Of a DNA stretch of 64,000 nt, positions 8,625 through 39,577 are shown one piece after another. Source of the DNA: a virus (taxonomy: Duplodnaviria > Caudoviricetes); the IMG/VR virus record IMGVR_UViG_3300027884_000039, positions 15,113 to 79,112 of that record; one strand, written 5' to 3'. The notes under the pieces were generated by a model. That model was given only the letters and a program-made list of their open reading frames with translations, had not been told where the DNA came from and made no database searches. A program made the position numbers and the translations under genes. The stretch's first letter is position 1; every line of letters starts with the position of its first letter.

Positions 8625-11600
8625 CTAATGTAATTTATTAGTTGCCATGAAATTAATGAGTGTCGCATGTTTAATTACTTGCTCCGCATGGTATGCCTGC
8701 CCCTCACTCACATAGTTCCAAAATAAGGGTCGTTGCTCTTTGGATAGTAAACCTACCATTGTCTTGGCGATTTCCTTATTACCCGCTTTGTCAGACCCCC
8801 ACAATTCAATAATTTTTTGGAAGTGATCATAGTTGTTATTCATATACGTTTAGTTTATTTACTCTTTAATTCATAATTCCATTCGCCATCGATGGTTCTG
8901 AACGGACGCACTATAGTTGGATGCCCCTGTCTATATAGATCGATTGAAACAATGGTGCGCACATCAACTCCTTGCTGCTCCAGGTGATCAAAGATCAGCG
9001 ATAACCAGGGCTTGCAATCGATCCCCTCTATTACTTTGCCGTTTTCATCAAAACAGCTATAGTGCCCATTATCAGCGATTAACATGGAATGTACTTTCAT
9101 ATACGTTTAGTTTATTTACAGCCCCGTTACGAAGACCTCCAAAGGGAAGAGGCGGGGGCTGCTATCATAATTTTCCCGACTTTAGACGGGTAAACGCCGA
9201 AGTTGAAAAGACATGTATAGGCATTCACATAATAGAAATACGGCCCAATACGGAGGGGATTCATGAAACACATATTTTCCTATCAGGAATAGCGCTACCA
9301 TAAATCCCAATATCTGTAGCCACATATAAAACTCTCTATATACGCGCTTTCTCTTGGTATCTGTAATCGGTACCTGCGGTTGTTCTTCCACTGGCTCCCA
9401 TATAATGAACCGAAAGCCATTGAATGTTCTCTTGGCACCATTGATTAGCACCACTACACATGGATAACCTTCGATGTCCTCATAAATCTCCGTCACCCCC
9501 TCGTGCCCTACTTCAAAATAGTCAATATCGTCGGGGTTTTCATTACTGTTAAAGATTCTAACATTGGTATTCATATTGTTGTTTTGTGGCCGTGAAGCCG
9601 GTTAAAAATTCTTGTGGTAGAATTCGATGAACTTATTATTGATGGCAACGTACTCATTCGCCTGGGCAATTATCCCAATTTGCTTTGCCGTAAAAGAAGT
9701 GATCCATCGTAATAATTCCTTCCTTTGGGGCTGATCCATACCAGCTATTTTTTCTCTGACTCTTTTATAATCCCCAGTAATCCACCACGATAGGAATGTC
9801 TTTAAATCTGAGTCTGATAATCCTATCGGTGTTTTCTTTTGTTTCATTGGTGAAATTGTTTAGTGATTTAATCGGGGTTTTTATCGCGGCCAATGACGAT
9901 GGCATTCACATAGCCCATAACTGGACCCCCTTCCTGCTTGAAGTTTTGAAACTGACCATCGTAATAGCGTTTCTTGCCTACCTCTATTACCATTTCCATC
10001 GTGATCTCCGGATGGTCATAGCCATTCTCATAGCCATCGACCAGGACTAGCATGTCGCGAGGTAGCTTACTCAGGCGGTCCAATAGTTCGCCTACTGTTG
10101 TTTGTTCTGCCATTGTTATGCGGGATCGTTGCCCGCTACGTTTATTCAGTGATTCCAATCGGTGGACAACCACAGGTGATCGCGGCTATCATTGCATGCA
10201 AAAGCTCTTCTGTATTACAAGAACCCATCGGTTCAGGATCAAAACCGAAGGATGGTCCAGGGTCATGCTCTTGCCATGGAATTTCATTGCCATCCTTATC
10301 TACTTCTACCCGCTCGGCTTCTAGCCAGAGCTTGTACTTGTACTTCTTTTCCATTGTTGTTGGTTTTATGGTGATTAAATTAAAACTTTGGACTGAAACT
10401 CCTGCTGATTTATAAATGTCAAGGTGTCGCCAATATAGTAATGGTTGCTTACCAAATAGACCTCTTCCAATTTTCCATACTCACACACTTCTAATATCTT
10501 GATGGCTTCGGGGATGTCATCGGCAACGAATATTGTTTTGAATTTACCATTCGTTGCCTTGTAATAAAGTACAAATAGCTTCATGTTGATTGGTTTATAG
10601 GGGGCTCCTGTTACGGGAGCCCCCTGGTGAATTAATGATTCCACGGATGATGGACGAGCGGCAGAGCCGCCTTCGCCATTTCTTCATCATCTAAATAATT
10701 AGCCACATTGGCTAACGTAAGTGGCAGTTCGATGTCTACGGCCATAAATGGCTGACCGAATCCATAGGGTTGGTCATGCGGCATGTCATACGCTATTACA
10801 TCATATTCAGCGGGCTTGTCGCAAAATACTTCGGTTACCAAGCCATTGTGGATAAGAACAATAATGCGGGCTTTGTCGCTCATTTTAGTGTTTTATGGGA
10901 TGTCGTGTTATACGACATCCCTGGTGAATGATTAAGGATTGATAATGGTGCCATCCGGCAGCTTATTGGTATTGATTATGGATACCTGTTCATTGCGTGA
11001 CAGCATATACGCTTCCGGCTTTGAGATACGCACGTAATAGTTTGCGTTGGTCGAAGCTACTTTCAATAGGACATAATACTCGCCGTTGCTATTGATAATA
11101 GCCATTGACGTGGTTATCACTCGTTGCCTTGTTGGTTTGTTTGACATCGGATGGATTTTTAAAGTGCGTTAATACAAAGGATAGCACGGGTATAAGCATT
11201 ATTGCTATCCTCTTGGAATGCTTGTTTAAGCATATGCCTTAATGCCGCCTTGCGCTTGTCTTTGTTCAGCGATAAAAATAACTCTACCGCCTTGTCTGGA
11301 TCATCTATTGATGTGCGAATGATCGTGTCATAATAGACCGGGTTGAGGGTTTTACACATGGCTGTACGGTTTAGTGTGACCAAAATAATGCCCACTGCTT
11401 CGCTCCACCGCGCTTGTGTCCATCGCCTGTGGTCTGGTAATGCGCACCTTCCGGTTCACTACCTTACTCACGACCTCGCCTAACTCCGCGAGGTTGTCCA
11501 TCGTAATGTAGGCATAGACCGGTTCTTCGAACGCTGTCCTTGGTCCCTCCGCTGCCACCTGGACAGCAATTAACTGGGGGATTGTTTTTTTCTTGTTCAT

Positions 11601-24662: not shown

Positions 24663-24733
24663 GCCAGGGTGGCCGAGCGGTTAGGTCCAGGTCTGCAAAA
24701 CCTGGTACATCGGTTCGAATCCGATCCCTGGTT
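24663..24733 (+). tRNA. tRNA-Cys(GCA)
   Basis: acceptor GCCAGGG/CCCTGGT, anticodon loop CTGCAAA, T-arm ATCGG TTCGAAT CCGAT, U discriminator; CCA not encoded. Confidence 0.9.
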
Positions 24734-24735
24734 CG

Positions 24736-33462: not shown

Positions 33463-33711
33463 ATGGGATTAGTAATGACAAGTATAACGGCTATTGTAGG
33501 AATCGACCCAGTGACGGGAGATGAAGGCCTTTGGGCTTTTTTAGATGATTTGGGAAAGTGCACGCCGATGGTATGTGCGGATGAAGAGCGCGTACAAATG
33601 ATGTTTCATGTGGCTGAACAAATGAGGAAGGCGAGCGGAATCGAATATAAGGTATTACAATTTTCCACGCGTGAGGATATCACAGCAGCAACTAAAAACA
33701 AGTACAGATGA
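33463..33711 (+). CDS. hypothetical protein
   Basis: ATG at 33463, abutting both neighbours. Confidence 0.6.
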   Translation: MGLVMTSITAIVGIDPVTGDEGLWAFLDDLGKCTPMVCADEERVQMMFHVAEQMRKASGIEYKVLQFSTREDITAATKNKYR

Positions 33712-34538
33712 GAACACTAGTCATGGGTGATATTCACGGAGCGGCCAAAGCGATTACACAATGCCTAGAAAGGAGTGGCTTCGACCGGGAGAATGATCGC
33801 CTCATCTTCATCGGGGATATGTGCGACGGCTGGCCCTACGTCTATGAAGCTGTGGAAGTGATTTTACAGGTAAAGAATCGGATCGATATCCTGGGTAACC
33901 ACGATGTATGGTTTCGGGATTGGCTCGTCAGCGGTTTCCATGGTGACCCGATTGGCCCCTGGATGCAAGGGGGAAGTGCCACGGCCAGGTCCTACCTGCG
34001 CCAGATCGGGAAGGAAGACATGATTGAAGAGGGATATCATGGCTATCGTACGTCACTTAATCCTGGCGATATACCGGTATCGCATAAGCAGTTTTTCAAT
34101 GATATGGTATTATATTATGTAGATGAGCATCACCGGCTCTACGTGCATGGCGGATATACCCGGACTATGTTGATTGAAGATATGAAGCGGATCAATCCGG
34201 TTGAATTGTATTGGAACCGTGAACTATGGAATCAGGCGATGTGTTGTAAGGGAAATGTACGGTTGAAGACCAAGGATAAGTTCAACGAAATATTCATTGG
34301 CCATACGCAAACGACGATCTGGACAACGAAGGAAACCAAGACGCTTAATGGATTCATCTTGCCGGCCGGTGAACCCATCACGAACCCGATGTATCATGGT
34401 GGCGTATACAACATCGATACTGGCGCTGGCGGCAGGGGTAAGCTCACGATCATGGACGTAGATACCAAGGAGTGTTGGCAGAGCGACCTGGTGATGGAGC
34501 TATATCCCAATGACAAAGGAAGACATGTAAATTATTAA
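33708..34538 (+). CDS. metallophosphoesterase (lambda NinI-like Ser/Thr phosphatase family)
   Basis: GDIHG, GDMCDG, GNHD, VHGG, GHT, DTGAG motifs. Confidence 0.92.
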   Translation: MRTLVMGDIHGAAKAITQCLERSGFDRENDRLIFIGDMCDGWPYVYEAVEVILQVKNRIDILGNHDVWFRDWLVSGFHGDPIGPWMQGGSATARSYLRQIGKEDMIEEGYHGYRTSLNPGDIPVSHKQFFNDMVLYYVDEHHRLYVHGGYTRTMLIEDMKRINPVELYWNRELWNQAMCCKGNVRLKTKDKFNEIFIGHTQTTIWTTKETKTLNGFILPAGEPITNPMYHGGVYNIDTGAGGRGKLTIMDVDTKECWQSDLVMELYPNDKGRHVNY

Positions 34539-34933: not shown

Positions 34934-35317
34934 ATGAGCGCCGACTACATGAAATTCAAGCAATGGTTCGACCACAAGTTGGAGGTGGGCGCATATCCTA
35001 ACCCTGAGATGGCTGAATGGCGAGCGGAGGATTACGCCTATGTAATCAATGTATCTGGCGCCTGGTACGCAGGTGAAGCGCCGATGTATCACCAGACCCG
35101 CTATTTTTGGTTTCCGATGAGTGAAGGCAAGAAGGACATGGGTATGAATAGTATTTACGGCGCCCTGGTGATCTTATGGGAGGCCGAGCGTCGTAATGAT
35201 CGAGTATACTTGCATTGCCATAGTGGGAGTAACCGCAGTTGGACAGTAGCCGCAGCGTATCATTACCTGCGTACCGGCACGCATTGGACCGACCGGTTAA
35301 GAGCGGGCCACACTTGA
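34934..35317 (+). CDS. dual-specificity/tyrosine phosphatase-like protein
   Basis: CX5R active loop VYLHCHSGSNRS. Confidence 0.8.
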   Translation: MSADYMKFKQWFDHKLEVGAYPNPEMAEWRAEDYAYVINVSGAWYAGEAPMYHQTRYFWFPMSEGKKDMGMNSIYGALVILWEAERRNDRVYLHCHSGSNRSWTVAAAYHYLRTGTHWTDRLRAGHT

Positions 35318-35898: not shown

Positions 35899-36200
35899 TT
35901 TGCGTATTTCCAAAAACCTTATTATCTTGAACCCACGTTCCAACTCCCCAGGAGTATGTAGTTGGGGGGACTTTTTTTAATTAATGAAATCCATTTCGAA
36001 CAGAAAGCAAGAGTACAGTTACAATCAGCAACCAACAGTTCTTTTTAAGTTTTAGCAAGGACATTTTTTGATTGAGGATGAAGATTGACTTTTGGCAGCA
36101 GTTTTGAATGAAGAGTAAACTATTAAAAGAGGGGCATTAAGTTCCTACTTGGCAGTAGCCAGGTATAGAAGGTTAGACTTGGTATTTAACAGACATTATC

Positions 36201-36228
36201 GTCCCCTGTTTCTACAGGGGACTCTTTT
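36201..36228 (+). terminator. hairpin with GTTTCTAC loop
   Basis: GTCCCCTGT TTCT ACAGGGGAC TCTTTT. Confidence 0.6.
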
Positions 36229-36250
36229 AACCAAAAAAACTACCCGCTAT

Positions 36251-36766
36251 ATGACCAAAATTAATGGGCATCTTATTCGCGAAGTGCTCAAAGAAAAAAT
36301 GTTGGAGTTGACGACCATCAATTCTACTTTTGAAGAAAGCTTATACAAATTTGAAAGTGAAGAAAAGCCATCCCCTGCCGCGTTGATGGCACGCATCATG
36401 GAACTGGAAACTGCGGTTGCCAAATTGCAAACTCTGCAATCGCAATATAACTTAACCGTAATGGTGCAGATTAATGAAGTAGCGATGCCCCTGGAAGAGG
36501 CGATCAAGCTGGTGGGGGGTGCTGGCCGCTCTTCGAAAAGATGGCGCGAAGCCGCCAAAGGAGAAAAGGTTGACCGGTATGAACGTCGTGCAAATAGGCA
36601 GCGAGAGAAAGACAAGGAATATACCGTCCCCACGATCTCAAAAGAAAAGGCGTTGGAATATGCCAAGAAGGCTGAACAATACGCAGGTAGTCTTCGCAAG
36701 GCCATCGCCTTAGGAATTTTAACAGATATTGAATTTGATGATAGTGTGGCGGCGCTCCTGGAGTAA
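36251..36766 (+). CDS. all-helical coiled-coil protein (DUF6847/DIP1984-like by recollection)
   Basis: LETAVAKLQTLQSQYNLTV..LEEAIKLVGG; start MTKING at 36251. Confidence 0.6.
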   Translation: MTKINGHLIREVLKEKMLELTTINSTFEESLYKFESEEKPSPAALMARIMELETAVAKLQTLQSQYNLTVMVQINEVAMPLEEAIKLVGGAGRSSKRWREAAKGEKVDRYERRANRQREKDKEYTVPTISKEKALEYAKKAEQYAGSLRKAIALGILTDIEFDDSVAALLE

Positions 36767-36965
36767 TCCCGGACACCAGTCACTTGGTTGGTATGCGAAC
36801 TCTACAAGCTACTACTTAACAGTAGTGACTTGCCCATCACTGGGATTATGCGCCTTCTTATCTAAATAGCCGTTATGTGTGTCTTGCTAAAGAACGGTTG
36901 ATAACAAGCAGTAGTAACCACAAATGGGAGTTGGACGGTACTCGTTGCTATCAAATACCAACCAA
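36763..36965 (+). ncRNA. candidate structured RNA directly after gene 36251-36766
   Basis: 11-bp TTGGTTGGTAT/ATACCAACCAA stem plus competing 10-bp and 7-bp helices. Confidence 0.55.
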
Positions 36966-36968
36966 CAT

Positions 36969-37039
36969 CGCGAGGTCATCTAACGGTAGGATACCGGGCT
37001 CATAACCCGAGAATTCGGGTTCGATTCCCGACTTCGCAA
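36969..37039 (+). tRNA. initiator tRNA-fMet(CAT)
   Basis: C1:A72 mismatch, GGG/CCC in the anticodon stem, loop CTCATAA, T-arm TCGGG TTCGATT CCCGA. Confidence 0.85.
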
Positions 37040-37053
37040 CAAAACTATAACCA

Positions 37054-37842
37054 ATGAAATTAAATGTACTCCTTGCGCGAGCCGAACATACTGGTGCGCA
37101 GTTCAAAATGATGATTCAAACATATGCACATACTTTCACGCATAAACAGGAGATATTCAGGGGCACTAAGAAGACTTATACGAAGGCACCGGGTTCGGAT
37201 GATTTCCCCAACATGAGCGGCAACGAAAAAGTGCAATCGTCGGTCGATGAATATTTGCAATGGTTTGAAGACACAGCCGACGAGTTTATTACTCACCGTT
37301 TTAACATTGAGGCTACGAATGCCTCCGGGCCAAAAGCTGAGCTTATCGTCGGTGGGCAGAAATTTGGCAGTTATAGCACCTGCGAGCTAATGCGGCTCAA
37401 TGATTTTTTAAATAGTCCTGAATTACTGAAGATGTATTCTATCCTGCCTGTGCGTAGTGATACAGAGAACTGGAAGGAGACTACCGATCCGGAAGGCATA
37501 AAAAAGAAGTTGTGGGAAACCGACATCAAGAAACTACCCCATAACACGACGATTAAAGGTTGGATTATCCTCCCCGATCCGAATGTGGAGAAACTGAAGG
37601 CCGGTAGTCCGTATACACCTATTAAGGAGTCCAGTGATACGAAAGTGTATTTAGGGGAACAGACCATGCAGAAGTTTAGCGGGGAATGGAGTCATGCTGA
37701 TCGGGCCAGTCTGCTGCGCAGGCTCACGATGCTAAAAGCGTCCGTGAAGGAAGCGCTAGTCACAGCCAATGAAACGCCAATGGTGGAATCGGAATTAACG
37801 GCGAAAAAAATATTCGGGTATTTGCATCGTGGAACAATTTGA
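37054..37842 (+). CDS. conserved helical protein of unknown function (DUF7873-like by recollection)
   Basis: MKLNVLLA..GTKKTY..KVQSSV..TNASG.KAELIV..LMRL..KFSGEW..L..SVKEALVTAN. Confidence 0.7.
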   Translation: MKLNVLLARAEHTGAQFKMMIQTYAHTFTHKQEIFRGTKKTYTKAPGSDDFPNMSGNEKVQSSVDEYLQWFEDTADEFITHRFNIEATNASGPKAELIVGGQKFGSYSTCELMRLNDFLNSPELLKMYSILPVRSDTENWKETTDPEGIKKKLWETDIKKLPHNTTIKGWIILPDPNVEKLKAGSPYTPIKESSDTKVYLGEQTMQKFSGEWSHADRASLLRRLTMLKASVKEALVTANETPMVESELTAKKIFGYLHRGTI

Positions 37843-37931
37843 CAAAGCCTTAGCTTTAGCCTTAGCTTAACACGATTCTAGTTAAATCAACTTTAGCTTC
37901 GCGTCAAAAGCCTCAGCTTTGTATGTTAGAT

Positions 37932-38071
37932 CGTGGTGTCAAGCTGACCAGAGCGGAAGGGCACAGGTTCGAATCCTGTCTCGGCCTCCAGATCATTCGA
38001 TCCGGAGGCCGAGTAGATACAGCGGCTAGATCATTCTGCATTTTAGCCTCAGTAAGCTTGAAAACATTGCG
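37932..38071 (+). ncRNA. circularly permuted tRNA-like RNA with YrlA (Y RNA-like) topology
   Basis: order: long stem 5' strand, T-arm ACAGG TTCGAAT CCTGT, closed acceptor stem CTCGGCCTCC/GGAGGCCGAG, D-arm TAGATACAGCGGCTAGATCA, long stem 3' strand. Confidence 0.75.
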
Positions 38072-38137
38072 AACGTCACGCTGACTTGAAAATCAGCAGC
38101 AGACTGAAAATCTGCCCGTGATTTGGGATCACGTTTG

Positions 38138-38169
38138 GGGCCAGGCAGGATACGACCTGGCCCTTTTTT
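38138..38169 (+). terminator. intrinsic terminator
   Basis: GGGCCAGG/CCTGGCCC followed by TTTTTT. Confidence 0.8.
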
Positions 38170-38188
38170 ACGGTTGAAATGCACAATC

Positions 38189-38599
38189 ATGAAAGATAAA
38201 ATCGACTCACTTAGCAAAATCCAACTGGATATGAAAATTGAAGTAGAACATGAAGAAGGAATTCCAATGGCGCGGCGAAAGGCGCCGAGTCTCTATGACC
38301 AATTATTTCCGGACCTCATTATGTTGACAGACAAGAAGAGTTTATTTTTCAAGACGGAAAAGGCAAAAGAAACCCTTACTCAATTTCGCTATTGGCTTAA
38401 AGCATATGAGCAAACACAAAAGGCATTTAATTATTTCGCACAGGTAGGATTTAGTACCCATGATAGGAAGATCGGTATCCGGATTTGGTGTTATGCAAAA
38501 ACGGTGGAACAAAAGAAGCCCCTTAGTACGGCGCAGCAAACGCTTAAAAAACGAGTGAAGAAAAATGCTGCTAAGAAAAAAGCCATAAAACATGAATGA
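38189..38599 (+). CDS. hypothetical basic protein
   Basis: ATG at 38189 after the caatc leader. Confidence 0.55.
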   Translation: MKDKIDSLSKIQLDMKIEVEHEEGIPMARRKAPSLYDQLFPDLIMLTDKKSLFFKTEKAKETLTQFRYWLKAYEQTQKAFNYFAQVGFSTHDRKIGIRIWCYAKTVEQKKPLSTAQQTLKKRVKKNAAKKKAIKHE

Positions 38600-38755
38600 T
38601 CAAGATATTAAAATATTACGAACAGCAGGTGATGGGCAACTCAAATCCGTAACTATTAAATTGGATAATGGGGATGTGTTGCACTTTAACGATCCTTTAA
38701 CATTAATCATATGGAAGGATATATTAAAGCTTGCTGCGGAAAAGGCAGAGAATAT

Positions 38756-38828
38756 GCTGCGGTAGCTCATCGGTTAGAGTAACAGACTGATAGCCTGTTG
38801 GGGGGTGGTTCGATTCCACCTCGCAGCA
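38756..38828 (+). tRNA. tRNA-Ile(GAT)
   Basis: acceptor GCTGCGG/TCGCAGC, D-arm GCTC/GAGT, loop CTGATAG, T-arm GGTGG TTCGATT CCACC; one A.C mismatch in the anticodon stem. Confidence 0.8.
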
Positions 38829-38918
38829 CGATGGTGAGGGAATAAGCGTGGGGGCTGCGATTGCCCGGTCTAACGTCCGAAAGCAGGACGATGCGAATAG
38901 CTCCTCATTAATACTTAA

Positions 38919-39137
38919 ATGATGAAAGAAAAGCAACTCGAATACTTGAACTTCAAAGGGTCTGTTCGGTACCAGTTGGAAGATCAAAAATGGTTTGGGG
39001 AAATCCTGAATATTACAGACTTGGTGTACTACGAAGCCGAATCGATTAAAGGACTGGAAGATGTGTTCAAGGAGGCGGTGGATGATTATCTGGATACCTG
39101 CAAAGAACTTAATAGGGAAATACCCTGGAAAAAATAA
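38919..39137 (+). CDS. HicB-family antitoxin-like protein (no HicA seen)
   Basis: LEYLNFKGSVRY..KWFGEILNITDLVYYEAESIKGLEDVFKEAVDDYL. Confidence 0.8.
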   Translation: MMKEKQLEYLNFKGSVRYQLEDQKWFGEILNITDLVYYEAESIKGLEDVFKEAVDDYLDTCKELNREIPWKK

Positions 39138-39140
39138 TAA

Positions 39141-39231
39141 GCCGAAGTGCCGGAATTGGTAGACGGCATCGATGATATCGATGGAGCTTATACTAGATTA
39201 GCTCGTGGGGGCTCGTATCCTCCCTTCGGCT
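39141..39231 (+). tRNA. atypical tRNA-like gene: tRNA-Leu-type body with GAT in the anticodon position
   Basis: acceptor GCCGAAG/CTTCGGC, Leu-type D-loop GAATTGGTAGAC, long variable arm GAGCT/AGCTC, stem CATCG ATGATAT CGATG, T-loop CTCGTAT. Confidence 0.6.
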
Positions 39232-39235
39232 CAAT

Positions 39236-39577
39236 ATGGCCTACTCATTCTTAACCAATATTCCCGATGAGGTGGTACCCCTGCTGATTCGGGCACAGAC
39301 CAATGCAGGGTTTGAGGCATATAGTTTCAAGCGCTATATTGACGGAAGAGGTTTATGCGGATTGATGCCAATGACTTTTACAATAGGACTGTTTTATGGT
39401 CTTGATGCGGATGGTAACTATACTGGTCGATATTGTTTTGCTGATTTGGCTCCCGCTAAGTTAGCAATAGAGACCTGGGACGGTATAGGTGATCCGCCAG
39501 GACCCTGGATTAAGCACAATGGCATACCCACATACTACAATCCCGAGTGGGTGAGGGAAAATAACTATATTCAATAA
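39236..39577 (+). CDS. conserved phage hypothetical protein
   Basis: GLCGLM.M.FTIGLFYGLD..YTGRYCF..WDGIGDPPGPWIKH. Confidence 0.7.
   Translation: MAYSFLTNIPDEVVPLLIRAQTNAGFEAYSFKRYIDGRGLCGLMPMTFTIGLFYGLDADGNYTGRYCFADLAPAKLAIETWDGIGDPPGPWIKHNGIPTYYNPEWVRENNYIQ

What the first reader, a model, noticed from the sequence alone, without database searches (positions are those of the whole stretch)
36201..39240. Candidate undescribed phage RNA island: two uncharacterised helical proteins each followed by a structured ncRNA, among tRNAs and tRNA mimics
Seen in sequence: within 3 kb lie gene 36251-36766 with a structured RNA starting at its stop codon, then initiator tRNA, gene 37054-37842 with a permuted tRNA-like RNA and anticodon-stem-loop hairpins, a terminator, tRNA-Ile, an orphan HicB and a Leu-bodied GAT tRNA-like gene. 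No Ro60/TROVE, RtcB, Pnkp or RT gene is visible in the window. Established: many anti-phage systems and toxins (PrrC, RloC, PARIS/AriB, VapC, HicA) attack tRNA or mRNA, and phages counter with tRNAs and decoys. Inference: the protein+RNA pairs form ribonucleoprotein modules, or a tRNA-decoy and translation-protection kit.
Basis: partly seen in the sequence, partly recalled or inferred. Interest (0 to 1): 0.82.

Follow-up and report, generated by a model that had tools for sequence, protein, structure and literature searches.

The report
Two phage protein-plus-RNA cassettes among tRNAs
In a complete 79-kb phage, two unrelated genes of unknown function are each followed by their own conserved folded RNA (one a back-to-front tRNA look-alike of the Y-RNA type, but with no Ro60 protein), which points to two undescribed protein-RNA pairs that travel with phage tRNA genes.

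Summary
Gene A (36251-36766) has the fold of PDB 3KDQ and belongs to no Pfam family. It is followed by a ~182-nt RNA (36784-36965) closed by an 11-bp stem. The same stem, enclosing 160-190 nt, follows 44 of 69 distinct gene A homologues, against 7 of 207 shuffles and 0 of 75 upstream controls, and 16 of 17 tested pairs show compensatory changes.

Gene B (37054-37842) is Pfam DUF7873. It is followed by a ~330-nt RNA whose core (37930-38070) is a circularly permuted tRNA mimic of YrlA architecture (23 of 45 pairs compensatory). This RNA follows DUF7873 in several distant phage clades. The complete phage has no Ro60/TROVE, RtcB or HicA gene, and the RNA lacks the Rsr-recognition motif.

The long-arm tRNA-like gene (39141-39232) is a conserved family with an unconstrained anticodon loop. 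The two cassettes are independent modules, not one system.

Protein-RNA binding and a tRNA-decoy or repair role are inference only.

This scan has noted both pairs before on other DNA: DUF7873 plus tRNA mimic in at least 113 genomes, and a 3KDQ-like gene plus RNA in at least 20. I found neither pair in the literature I could search.

The parts
36251..36766 (+). Gene A, 171 aa. Helical protein with the fold of PDB 3KDQ. No Pfam, NCBIfam or PHROG family.
   Evidence: ORF. 545 clusters of homologues. AlphaFold model pLDDT 88.7. 3KDQ match at Z 13.3 over 151 of 152 residues, TM 0.71-0.79. No DUF6847 match.
36784..36965 (+). RNA 1, ~182 nt. Closing stem P1 is 36784-36794 paired with 36955-36965. 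Hairpin P2 is 36805-36832. A CUAAAU word lies at 36862-36867 before an inner hairpin. A 3' word ACUCGUUGCUAUC lies at 36940-36952. The RNA ends 3 nt before tRNA-Met.
   Evidence: Conserved after gene A homologues. P1 and P2: 16 of 17 pairs with compensatory changes, 90% paired, 0 of 500 shuffles. Stem enclosing 160-190 nt: 44/69 downstream, 7/207 shuffled, 0/75 upstream, 7/82 coding. No Rfam match in 12 homologous loci.
36969..37040 (+). tRNA-Met(CAU) with initiator features
   Evidence: ARAGORN. Rfam tRNA 53.2 bits. The 1-72 pair is non-standard, and G29-31/C39-41 can be read from the alignment.
37054..37842 (+). Gene B, 262 aa, Pfam DUF7873
   Evidence: PF25283 at 101.5 bits against a cut-off of 27. 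94 homologues. Model pLDDT 86.3 with no fold match in PDB or BFVD.
37843..37929 (+). Nearly invariant leader with UAGC/CAGC words at 6-nt spacing. It could be RNA, a promoter, or both; this is unresolved.
   Evidence: Alignment of five relatives. Word positions and lag-6 signal of 0.41.
37930..38070 (+). Core of RNA 2: a circularly permuted tRNA mimic of YrlA architecture. End helices are 37934-37948 paired with 38053-38070. The anticodon-stem analogue is 37953-37958 paired with 38034-38039. T arm 37963-37979. Loop-closed acceptor stem 37980-38013. D arm 38014-38033.
   Evidence: 45 pairs, 23 with compensatory changes, 96.8% paired, 0 of 500 shuffles; slid controls 32-47%. Rfam YrlA only 19 bits. 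Model R1 also finds genuine Rsr-adjacent YrlA RNAs.
38080..38133 (+). Three hairpins: 38080-38097 (8-nt loop); 38099-38115 (anticodon-arm-like, loop C-U-GAA-A-A); 38117-38133 (T-arm-like). No acceptor stem.
   Evidence: Sequence. The anticodon-arm-like hairpin is kept in all five relatives, with loop triplets GAA, UAU, GUU, UAA and UGU.
38137..38169 (+). Intrinsic terminator closing the RNA 2 unit
   Evidence: G+C-rich stem plus a U run. Conserved in four of five relatives with a compensatory C/G exchange.
38756..38829 (+). tRNA-Ile(GAU)
   Evidence: ARAGORN. Rfam tRNA 56 bits.
38919..39137 (+). HicB-like ORF, 72 aa, with no HicA partner
   Evidence: phrog_9151, E 2.1e-15. No HicA_toxin match in the 79-kb genome.
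39141..39232 (+). Type-II (long variable arm) tRNA-like RNA. Its variable-arm loop is conserved and its anticodon loop is unconstrained.
   Evidence: ARAGORN only. A family is found near DUF7873 in 11 loci from clades with 36-58% protein identity. The cloverleaf covaries: 23 of 25 pairs compensatory, 0 of 500 shuffles.

Best explanation
The stretch is a mosaic phage RNA island. It holds two independent cassettes, each made of a protein gene followed by a non-coding RNA, set among real tRNAs.

Cassette 1: gene A (3KDQ fold) is read through into a ~182-nt RNA closed by a long stem. The 3' end of this RNA is probably set when RNase P cuts the abutting initiator tRNA.

Cassette 2: DUF7873 is followed by a ~330-nt RNA that ends at its own terminator. 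The core of this RNA is a tRNA turned inside out (T arm, loop-closed acceptor stem, D arm, no anticodon loop), as in the bacterial Y RNA YrlA.

I infer that each protein binds the RNA encoded behind it, forming a particle that works without Ro60. I also infer that both particles act on tRNA biology during infection, by engaging host enzymes or defence nucleases that recognise tRNA shape.

Shown here: the genes, the RNAs, their covariation, the gene-RNA linkage across distant phages, the tRNA-array setting, and the absence of Ro60, RtcB and HicA.

Inferred only: transcription and processing, protein-RNA binding, and the cellular role.
For: RNA 1
- The linkage and structure are supported.
- 18 of 77 loci have a tRNA starting 180-260 nt after the gene A stop.

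RNA 2
- The structure is supported.
- DUF7873 is followed by a match to my model R1 or to Rfam YrlA in:
  - the window, L024, L026-L028 and L030 (98-158 bits);
  - L006 (49 bits);
  - the Rhizobium-phage type L003, L127, L128 and L129 (30-43 bits);
  - the 100-190-kb clade, more weakly and at the same offset (14-26 bits).

Absence of Ro60
- Complete phages G000, G005, G006 and G008 carry the pair and lack TROVE.

Links to known RNA-repair islands
- Both families sit with Rsr-YrlA in other phages. G001 reads Rsr, YrlA x2, tRNAs, gene A, with DUF7873 12 kb further on. The Rhizobium phage has DUF7873, YrlA and Rsr within 6 kb.

Possible binding sites
- Conserved single-stranded words occur in both RNAs, as expected for protein-binding sites.
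Against: - There are no transcript, binding or phenotype data.
- DUF7873 in the Lak megaphages and in G001 is not followed by the RNA. The pairing is therefore frequent, not obligatory.
- An earlier check in this scan priced the partner reading for DUF7873 at about 22% (note e1-2703945; I did not verify it).
- Neither protein has a recognisable RNA-binding fold.
- RNA 1 alone does not fold better than shuffles.
- Genes and RNAs that merely share a tRNA-island operon would also stay adjacent.
Confidence: 0.55

Rival explanations
1. RNA 2 is a classical Y RNA that works with the host's Ro60/Rsr (and PNPase). DUF7873 is only a neighbour within the tRNA island.
For: The architecture is that of YrlA, and my model R1 finds genuine Rsr-adjacent YrlA RNAs. 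Some phages with DUF7873 also encode Rsr. Ro60 occurs in Bacteroidota: the Bacteroides thetaiotaomicron control genome gives a match.
Against: - The GNCGAAN0-1G word that Chen et al. 2014 propose for Rsr recognition is absent from the 5' arm (read).
- The conserved words here are different: AAGUCAR paired to YUGAAAAC, and an AGCYUUAGC loop.
- The RNA follows DUF7873 in four complete phages without Rsr.
- The Rfam YrlA score is 19 bits against a threshold of 69.
Confidence: 0.2
2. The RNAs act in cis rather than as partners. They would be 3' stabilisers or processing punctuation that lets host RNase P, RNase Z or RNase E cut the polycistronic island transcript and protect the upstream message.
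For: - RNA 1 abuts a tRNA in 18 of 77 loci.
- RNA 2 carries tRNA-shaped modules that tRNA-processing enzymes recognise in YrlA (Chen et al. 2014, abstract).
Against: - RNA 1 keeps a constant size of ~170-180 nt and conserved internal words while its stems change completely.
- RNA 2 has its own conserved terminator and a long conserved leader.
- Each RNA type is specific to one gene family, rather than generic to the island.
Confidence: 0.17
3. The tRNA-like pieces are decaying tandem tRNA genes (pseudogenes) with no function of their own.
For: Tandem tRNA junctions do score with YrlA-type models, for example L003 576-720 and L025 6367-6421. The island is full of tRNAs.
Against: The acceptor strands pair with each other across a small loop and covary. 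23 of 45 pairs are compensatory across relatives at 50-58% protein identity. The type-II tRNA-like gene keeps a nearly invariant variable-arm loop across clades.
Confidence: 0.03

Closest known systems
YrlA, the bacterial and phage Y RNA partner of Ro60/Rsr (Rfam RF02553; Chen et al. 2014, PMC4201824)
   Same: A permuted tRNA-like domain in the same order: stem strand, T arm, loop-closed acceptor stem, U8-A9, D arm with GG, stem strand. The 5' and 3' ends pair into a long helix. It occurs in phages near tRNAs.
   Different: No Ro60 gene in the complete phage. No GNCGAAN0-1G word. 19 bits against the 69-bit threshold. The acceptor stem is longer (7 bp plus an invariant U-C-C paired to GGA, plus a 4-bp cap). 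There is an extra conserved leader and extra 3' hairpins. It is linked to DUF7873.
PDB 3KDQ, an uncharacterised protein of Corynebacterium diphtheriae. Earlier notes of this scan file it under DIP1984 / Pfam DUF6847; I did not verify that naming.
   Same: Gene A's model superposes on almost the whole chain (Z 13.3, 151 of 152 residues; the next hit scores 8.7).
   Different: No sequence-level match to PF20935 or to NCBIfam for gene A or 11 homologues. The function of 3KDQ is unknown, so the match gives no mechanism.
Ro60-Y RNA RNA-repair platforms of jumbo phages (Iyer et al. 2021, PMC7824862, section 3.4.9)
   Same: A tRNA-like RNA together with a dedicated protein in phage RNA-conflict islands. 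In G001 and the Rhizobium phages the families seen here sit beside Rsr-YrlA.
   Different: This phage has neither the TROVE protein nor RtcB. The candidate partners are two unrelated proteins of unknown fold or function.

Membership tests
YrlA / bacterial Y RNA (RF02553) | Score at or above Rfam's gathering threshold (69 bits) | tested here: not met
   19 bits, model positions 23-86 only.
YrlA / bacterial Y RNA (RF02553) | tRNA-like domain with T arm, loop-closed acceptor stem and D arm, opened at the anticodon position and closed by a long stem formed by the RNA ends | tested here: met
   Model R1, built from this RNA, finds Rsr-adjacent YrlA RNAs at 35 bits.
YrlA / bacterial Y RNA (RF02553) | Encoded next to a Ro60/Rsr (TROVE) gene | tested here: not met
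   No TROVE match at E <= 1 in the whole 79-kb record, which is rated 100% complete. The same holds in G005, G006 and G008.
YrlA / bacterial Y RNA (RF02553) | 5' motif GNCGAAN0-1G, proposed for Rsr recognition | tested here: not met
   The motif is quoted from the paper. It is not present in 37900-37962 or in the four relatives.
YrlA / bacterial Y RNA (RF02553) | Bound by Rsr; carries tRNA-type modifications | not testable with these tools
   Needs immunoprecipitation and modification mapping.
Pfam DUF7873 (PF25283) | HMM score above the curated cut-off over the full length | tested here: met
   101.5 bits against 27; residues 2-258 on profile positions 3-242 of 244.
DIP1984 / Pfam DUF6847 (PF20935), structure 3KDQ | Sequence match to the family HMM | tested here: not met
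   No match for gene A or 11 homologues at E <= 1. No match in the genome at E <= 10. No NCBIfam match.
DIP1984 / Pfam DUF6847 (PF20935), structure 3KDQ | Same fold as 3KDQ | tested here: met
   Foldseek probability 1.00, TM 0.71/0.79. VIA Z 13.3, rmsd 4.0, 151 residues aligned.
HicAB toxin-antitoxin | HicB-like antitoxin paired with a HicA toxin gene | tested here: not met
The HicB-like match is good (phrog_9151, 2.1e-15), but there is no HicA_toxin match in the genome.
Canonical elongator tRNA (for 39141-39232) | Rfam tRNA threshold, and a 7-nt anticodon loop kept among relatives | tested here: not met
   Not listed by Rfam in the window. The loops of relatives are 3-9 nt with two- or four-base 'anticodons'. 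The cloverleaf itself covaries.
Bacterial initiator tRNA (for 36969-37040) | Unpaired 1-72 position and three consecutive G-C pairs at the base of the anticodon stem | tested here: met
   Read from the Rfam alignment: C1/A72 is flagged non-standard, and GGG/CCC flanks the CUCAUAA loop.

The most novel reading that the evidence does not exclude
DUF7873 and the 3KDQ-fold protein are dedicated binders of the RNAs encoded behind them. The two resulting particles would be Ro60-independent relatives of Y-RNA particles. Phages would use them to present tRNA-shaped bait to host tRNA-cutting defences, or to recruit host tRNA-processing and repair enzymes. The variable anticodon-arm hairpin and the long-arm tRNA-like RNA would serve as exchangeable bait.
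Probability: 0.25. Interest if true: 0.9.

Novelty: new variant of a known kind. Interest (0 to 1): 0.72.

Why it matters
Y RNAs are known only as partners of Ro60. A widespread tRNA-mimic RNA that instead travels with a different, phage-borne protein would extend that class, and so would a second uncatalogued gene-RNA pair. Together they would give a function to part of the unexplained content of phage tRNA islands.

This 79-kb phage is a minimal natural case. It carries both cassettes side by side and has no Ro60, RtcB or HicA. The cultured Rhizobium phages RHph_TM carry DUF7873, the RNA and Rsr together, so the question can be tested at the bench.

Tried and rejected
- Homology between gene A and DUF7873: rejected (hhalign probability 0.9%).
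- Function of DUF7873 from its fold: nothing found. Foldseek PDB best E 0.012, VIA best Z 6.8 on helical bundles, BFVD best E 0.002, PDB sequence profile best E 0.018, and the Atlas returns only DUF7873 clusters.
- Prophage copies of DUF7873 in 185,579 species genomes: none with this subfamily's peptide patterns. This is a narrow test.
- Y-like RNA after DUF7873 in the Lak megaphages: none. In G001 a tRNA follows instead.
- Gene A in named phage genomes: no tblastn match at 1e-3. I could not confirm the claim of earlier notes that the pair occurs in T5.
- The 'seven-base rail' that earlier notes report in RNAs behind 3KDQ-like genes: only a weak lag-7 excess here (0.271 against about 0.25).
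- An embedded CCA or two-piece tRNA reading of the acceptor stem: U73-C74-C75 is invariant, but position 76 is A, G, C, C, G in the five relatives.
- Permuted tmRNA: ARAGORN calls none here, and the RNA has a true D arm.
- Two tandem permuted modules, as earlier notes describe elsewhere: in this clade I find one full module plus acceptor-less hairpins.
- 38830-38918 (z -1.4) and 35899-36250 (z -2.2, two terminator-like hairpins) were not pursued.
Full report
**What is there**

The window is bases 15113-79112 of a 79,112-base virus record that CheckV rates 100% complete. Between 36.2 and 39.3 kb all genes lie on the + strand. In order they are:
- gene A (36251-36766, 171 aa);
- a 200-nt gap;
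- tRNA-Met(CAU) (36969-37040);
- gene B (37054-37842, 262 aa);
- a 346-nt gap;
- two small ORFs;
- tRNA-Ile(GAU) (38756-38829);
- a HicB-like ORF (38919-39137);
- a 92-nt long-arm tRNA-like gene (39141-39232).

The tRNA-Met has the initiator hallmarks, an unpaired 1-72 position and a GGG/CCC anticodon stem. No TROVE/Ro60, RtcB or HicA gene exists anywhere in the genome. I did not search for Pnkp or reverse transcriptase.

**Cassette 2: DUF7873 and a YrlA-type RNA**

Gene B is a clear member of Pfam DUF7873 (101.5 bits). This family is mainly viral, and no paper in the library mentions it. A confident model (pLDDT 86) matches no solved or predicted viral fold.

The 328 nt between its stop codon and a conserved terminator fold far better than shuffles (z -4.8). 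They are conserved in four relatives whose protein is 50-58% identical. The core, 37930-38070, reads as follows: two end helices, a 5-6-bp stem in the anticodon-stem position, a perfect T arm, a 7-bp acceptor stem extended by an invariant U-C-C paired to GGA and capped by a small hairpin, U8-A9, and a D arm with GG. There is no anticodon loop.

Of 45 pairs, 23 show compensatory changes and 96.8% of cells pair. No shuffle out of 500 reaches this, and slid registers pair only 32-47%. This is the architecture of YrlA. Rfam's YrlA model gives only 19 bits here. A model built from this RNA (R1) finds two genuine YrlA RNAs next to an Rsr gene in another phage at 35 bits.

**Linkage of the RNA to DUF7873**

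R1 or Rfam YrlA matches lie 90-500 nt downstream of DUF7873 in:
- the 76-79-kb clade (window, L024, L026-L028, L030; 98-158 bits);
- L006 (49 bits);
- the Rhizobium-phage type (L003, L127-L129; 30-43 bits);
- a 100-190-kb clade, where the acceptor loop carries a 68-131-nt insertion (14-26 bits; the T arm, acceptor stem and AGCUUUAGC word are visible in the alignments).

Exceptions are the Lak megaphages and phage G001, where a terminator or a tRNA follows instead. Tandem tRNA junctions give false matches of 23-24 bits with these models; I discounted them.

Four complete phages with the pair lack TROVE. The Rhizobium phage and G001 have it nearby. The word that Chen et al. propose for Rsr recognition is absent. 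The conserved words are instead AAGUCAR paired to YUGAAAAC, and an AGCYUUAGC loop. That loop word also recurs at 6-nt spacing in the invariant leader 37843-37929. I cannot tell whether the leader is RNA, a Bacteroidota-type promoter, or both.

Downstream of the core lie three hairpins. The middle one keeps a 7-nt loop with U33 and A37, but its triplet differs in every relative (GAA, UAU, GUU, UAA, UGU). The last is T-arm-like. There is no acceptor stem.

**Cassette 1: gene A and RNA 1**

Gene A has no Pfam, PHROG or NCBIfam family. It does have 545 clusters of homologues. Its model (pLDDT 88.7) superposes on nearly all of PDB 3KDQ, an uncharacterised Corynebacterium protein (Z 13.3; next hit 8.7). 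It is not detectably related to DUF7873.

The RNA after it looked unconvincing on its own (z -1.46). In 69 distinct loci carrying homologues at 33-55% identity, however, a perfect stem scoring at least 22 and enclosing 160-190 nt starts 0-40 nt after the stop codon in 44. The controls give 7 of 207 dinucleotide shuffles, 0 of 75 upstream regions and 7 of 82 coding regions. The stem sequences differ completely between loci. In a 12-sequence alignment, 16 of the 17 pairs of P1 and P2 have compensatory changes.

Shared inner features are a first hairpin with a GNRA-like loop, a CUAAAU word before an inner hairpin, and a 3' word such as ACUCGUUGCU. No Rfam family matches. In 18 of 77 loci a tRNA starts 180-260 nt after the stop, directly behind the RNA, as in the window. 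Gene A homologues sit in tRNA arrays of 120-500-kb phages, once beside a tmRNA and once three genes from Rsr-YrlA.

**The long-arm tRNA-like gene**

Copies lie 0.3-0.7 kb downstream of DUF7873 in 11 loci from two clades. The cloverleaf covaries (23 of 25 pairs). The variable-arm loop AUAUUCUAGGU is nearly invariant. The anticodon loop ranges from 3 to 9 nt. It is therefore a tRNA-shaped RNA whose constrained part is not the anticodon.

**How the parts relate**

The cassettes are separable. Gene A is missing from complete relatives that keep DUF7873 and its RNA (the same query found gene A in G001 and G003). Only L030 and G001 carry both. The island is thus a mosaic of modules that gather around phage tRNA genes. 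A conserved upstream pair of phosphoesterases, Metallophos and DSP-like, is also present.

**Interpretation**

The simplest reading of two gene-specific, covarying RNAs that stay behind their genes across very distant phages is that each protein works with its RNA. The tRNA mimicry, and the company of Rsr-YrlA in some phages, point to tRNA-directed conflict or repair. None of this is shown.

Three alternatives remain open:
- use of the host's Ro60;
- a cis role in transcript processing;
- mere co-location in an operon.

**Relation to earlier notes of this scan**

Both pairs have been reported before on other DNA. I confirmed the parts I could test: the DUF7873-RNA linkage and the 3KDQ fold. 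I could not confirm several others:
- the second permuted module;
- the heptad rail;
- occurrence in T5;
- DUF6847 membership;
- a conserved CCA.

Noticed in passing
window 9103-9197 (-): Type-P3 twister ribozyme, 53.2 bits against a gathering score of 39.9.
   Followed up: no
L008 824-921, L022 802-909, L025 874-973: RAGATH-34 RNA (RF03103) above threshold (72-78 bits), about 2.1 kb upstream of DUF7873 in the 100-190-kb phage clade.
   Followed up: no
window 33708-34538 and 34934-35317: A calcineurin-like phosphoesterase (NinI-like) and a dual-specificity-phosphatase-like gene stay in synteny upstream of DUF7873 in relatives L026, L027, L028 and L030. They may be RNA-end healing enzymes; this is untested.
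   Followed up: partly
L039 1-3200 (phage G001, 189.7 kb): One stretch holds an Rsr (TROVE) gene, two YrlA RNAs (56 and 49 bits), a 181-aa ORF, tRNA-Ile and tRNA-Ala, then a gene A homologue with its RNA. DUF7873 lies 12 kb further on.
   Followed up: partly
L038 2501-4018: A gene A homologue with its RNA is followed by two tRNA-Leu genes and a phage tmRNA (113 bits).
   Followed up: no
window 36201-36222 and 35940-35976: Two terminator-like hairpins lie upstream of gene A. The second ends 29 nt before its start codon.
   Followed up: no
window 24663-24734: A lone tRNA-Cys(GCA) lies 12 kb from the island.
   Followed up: no
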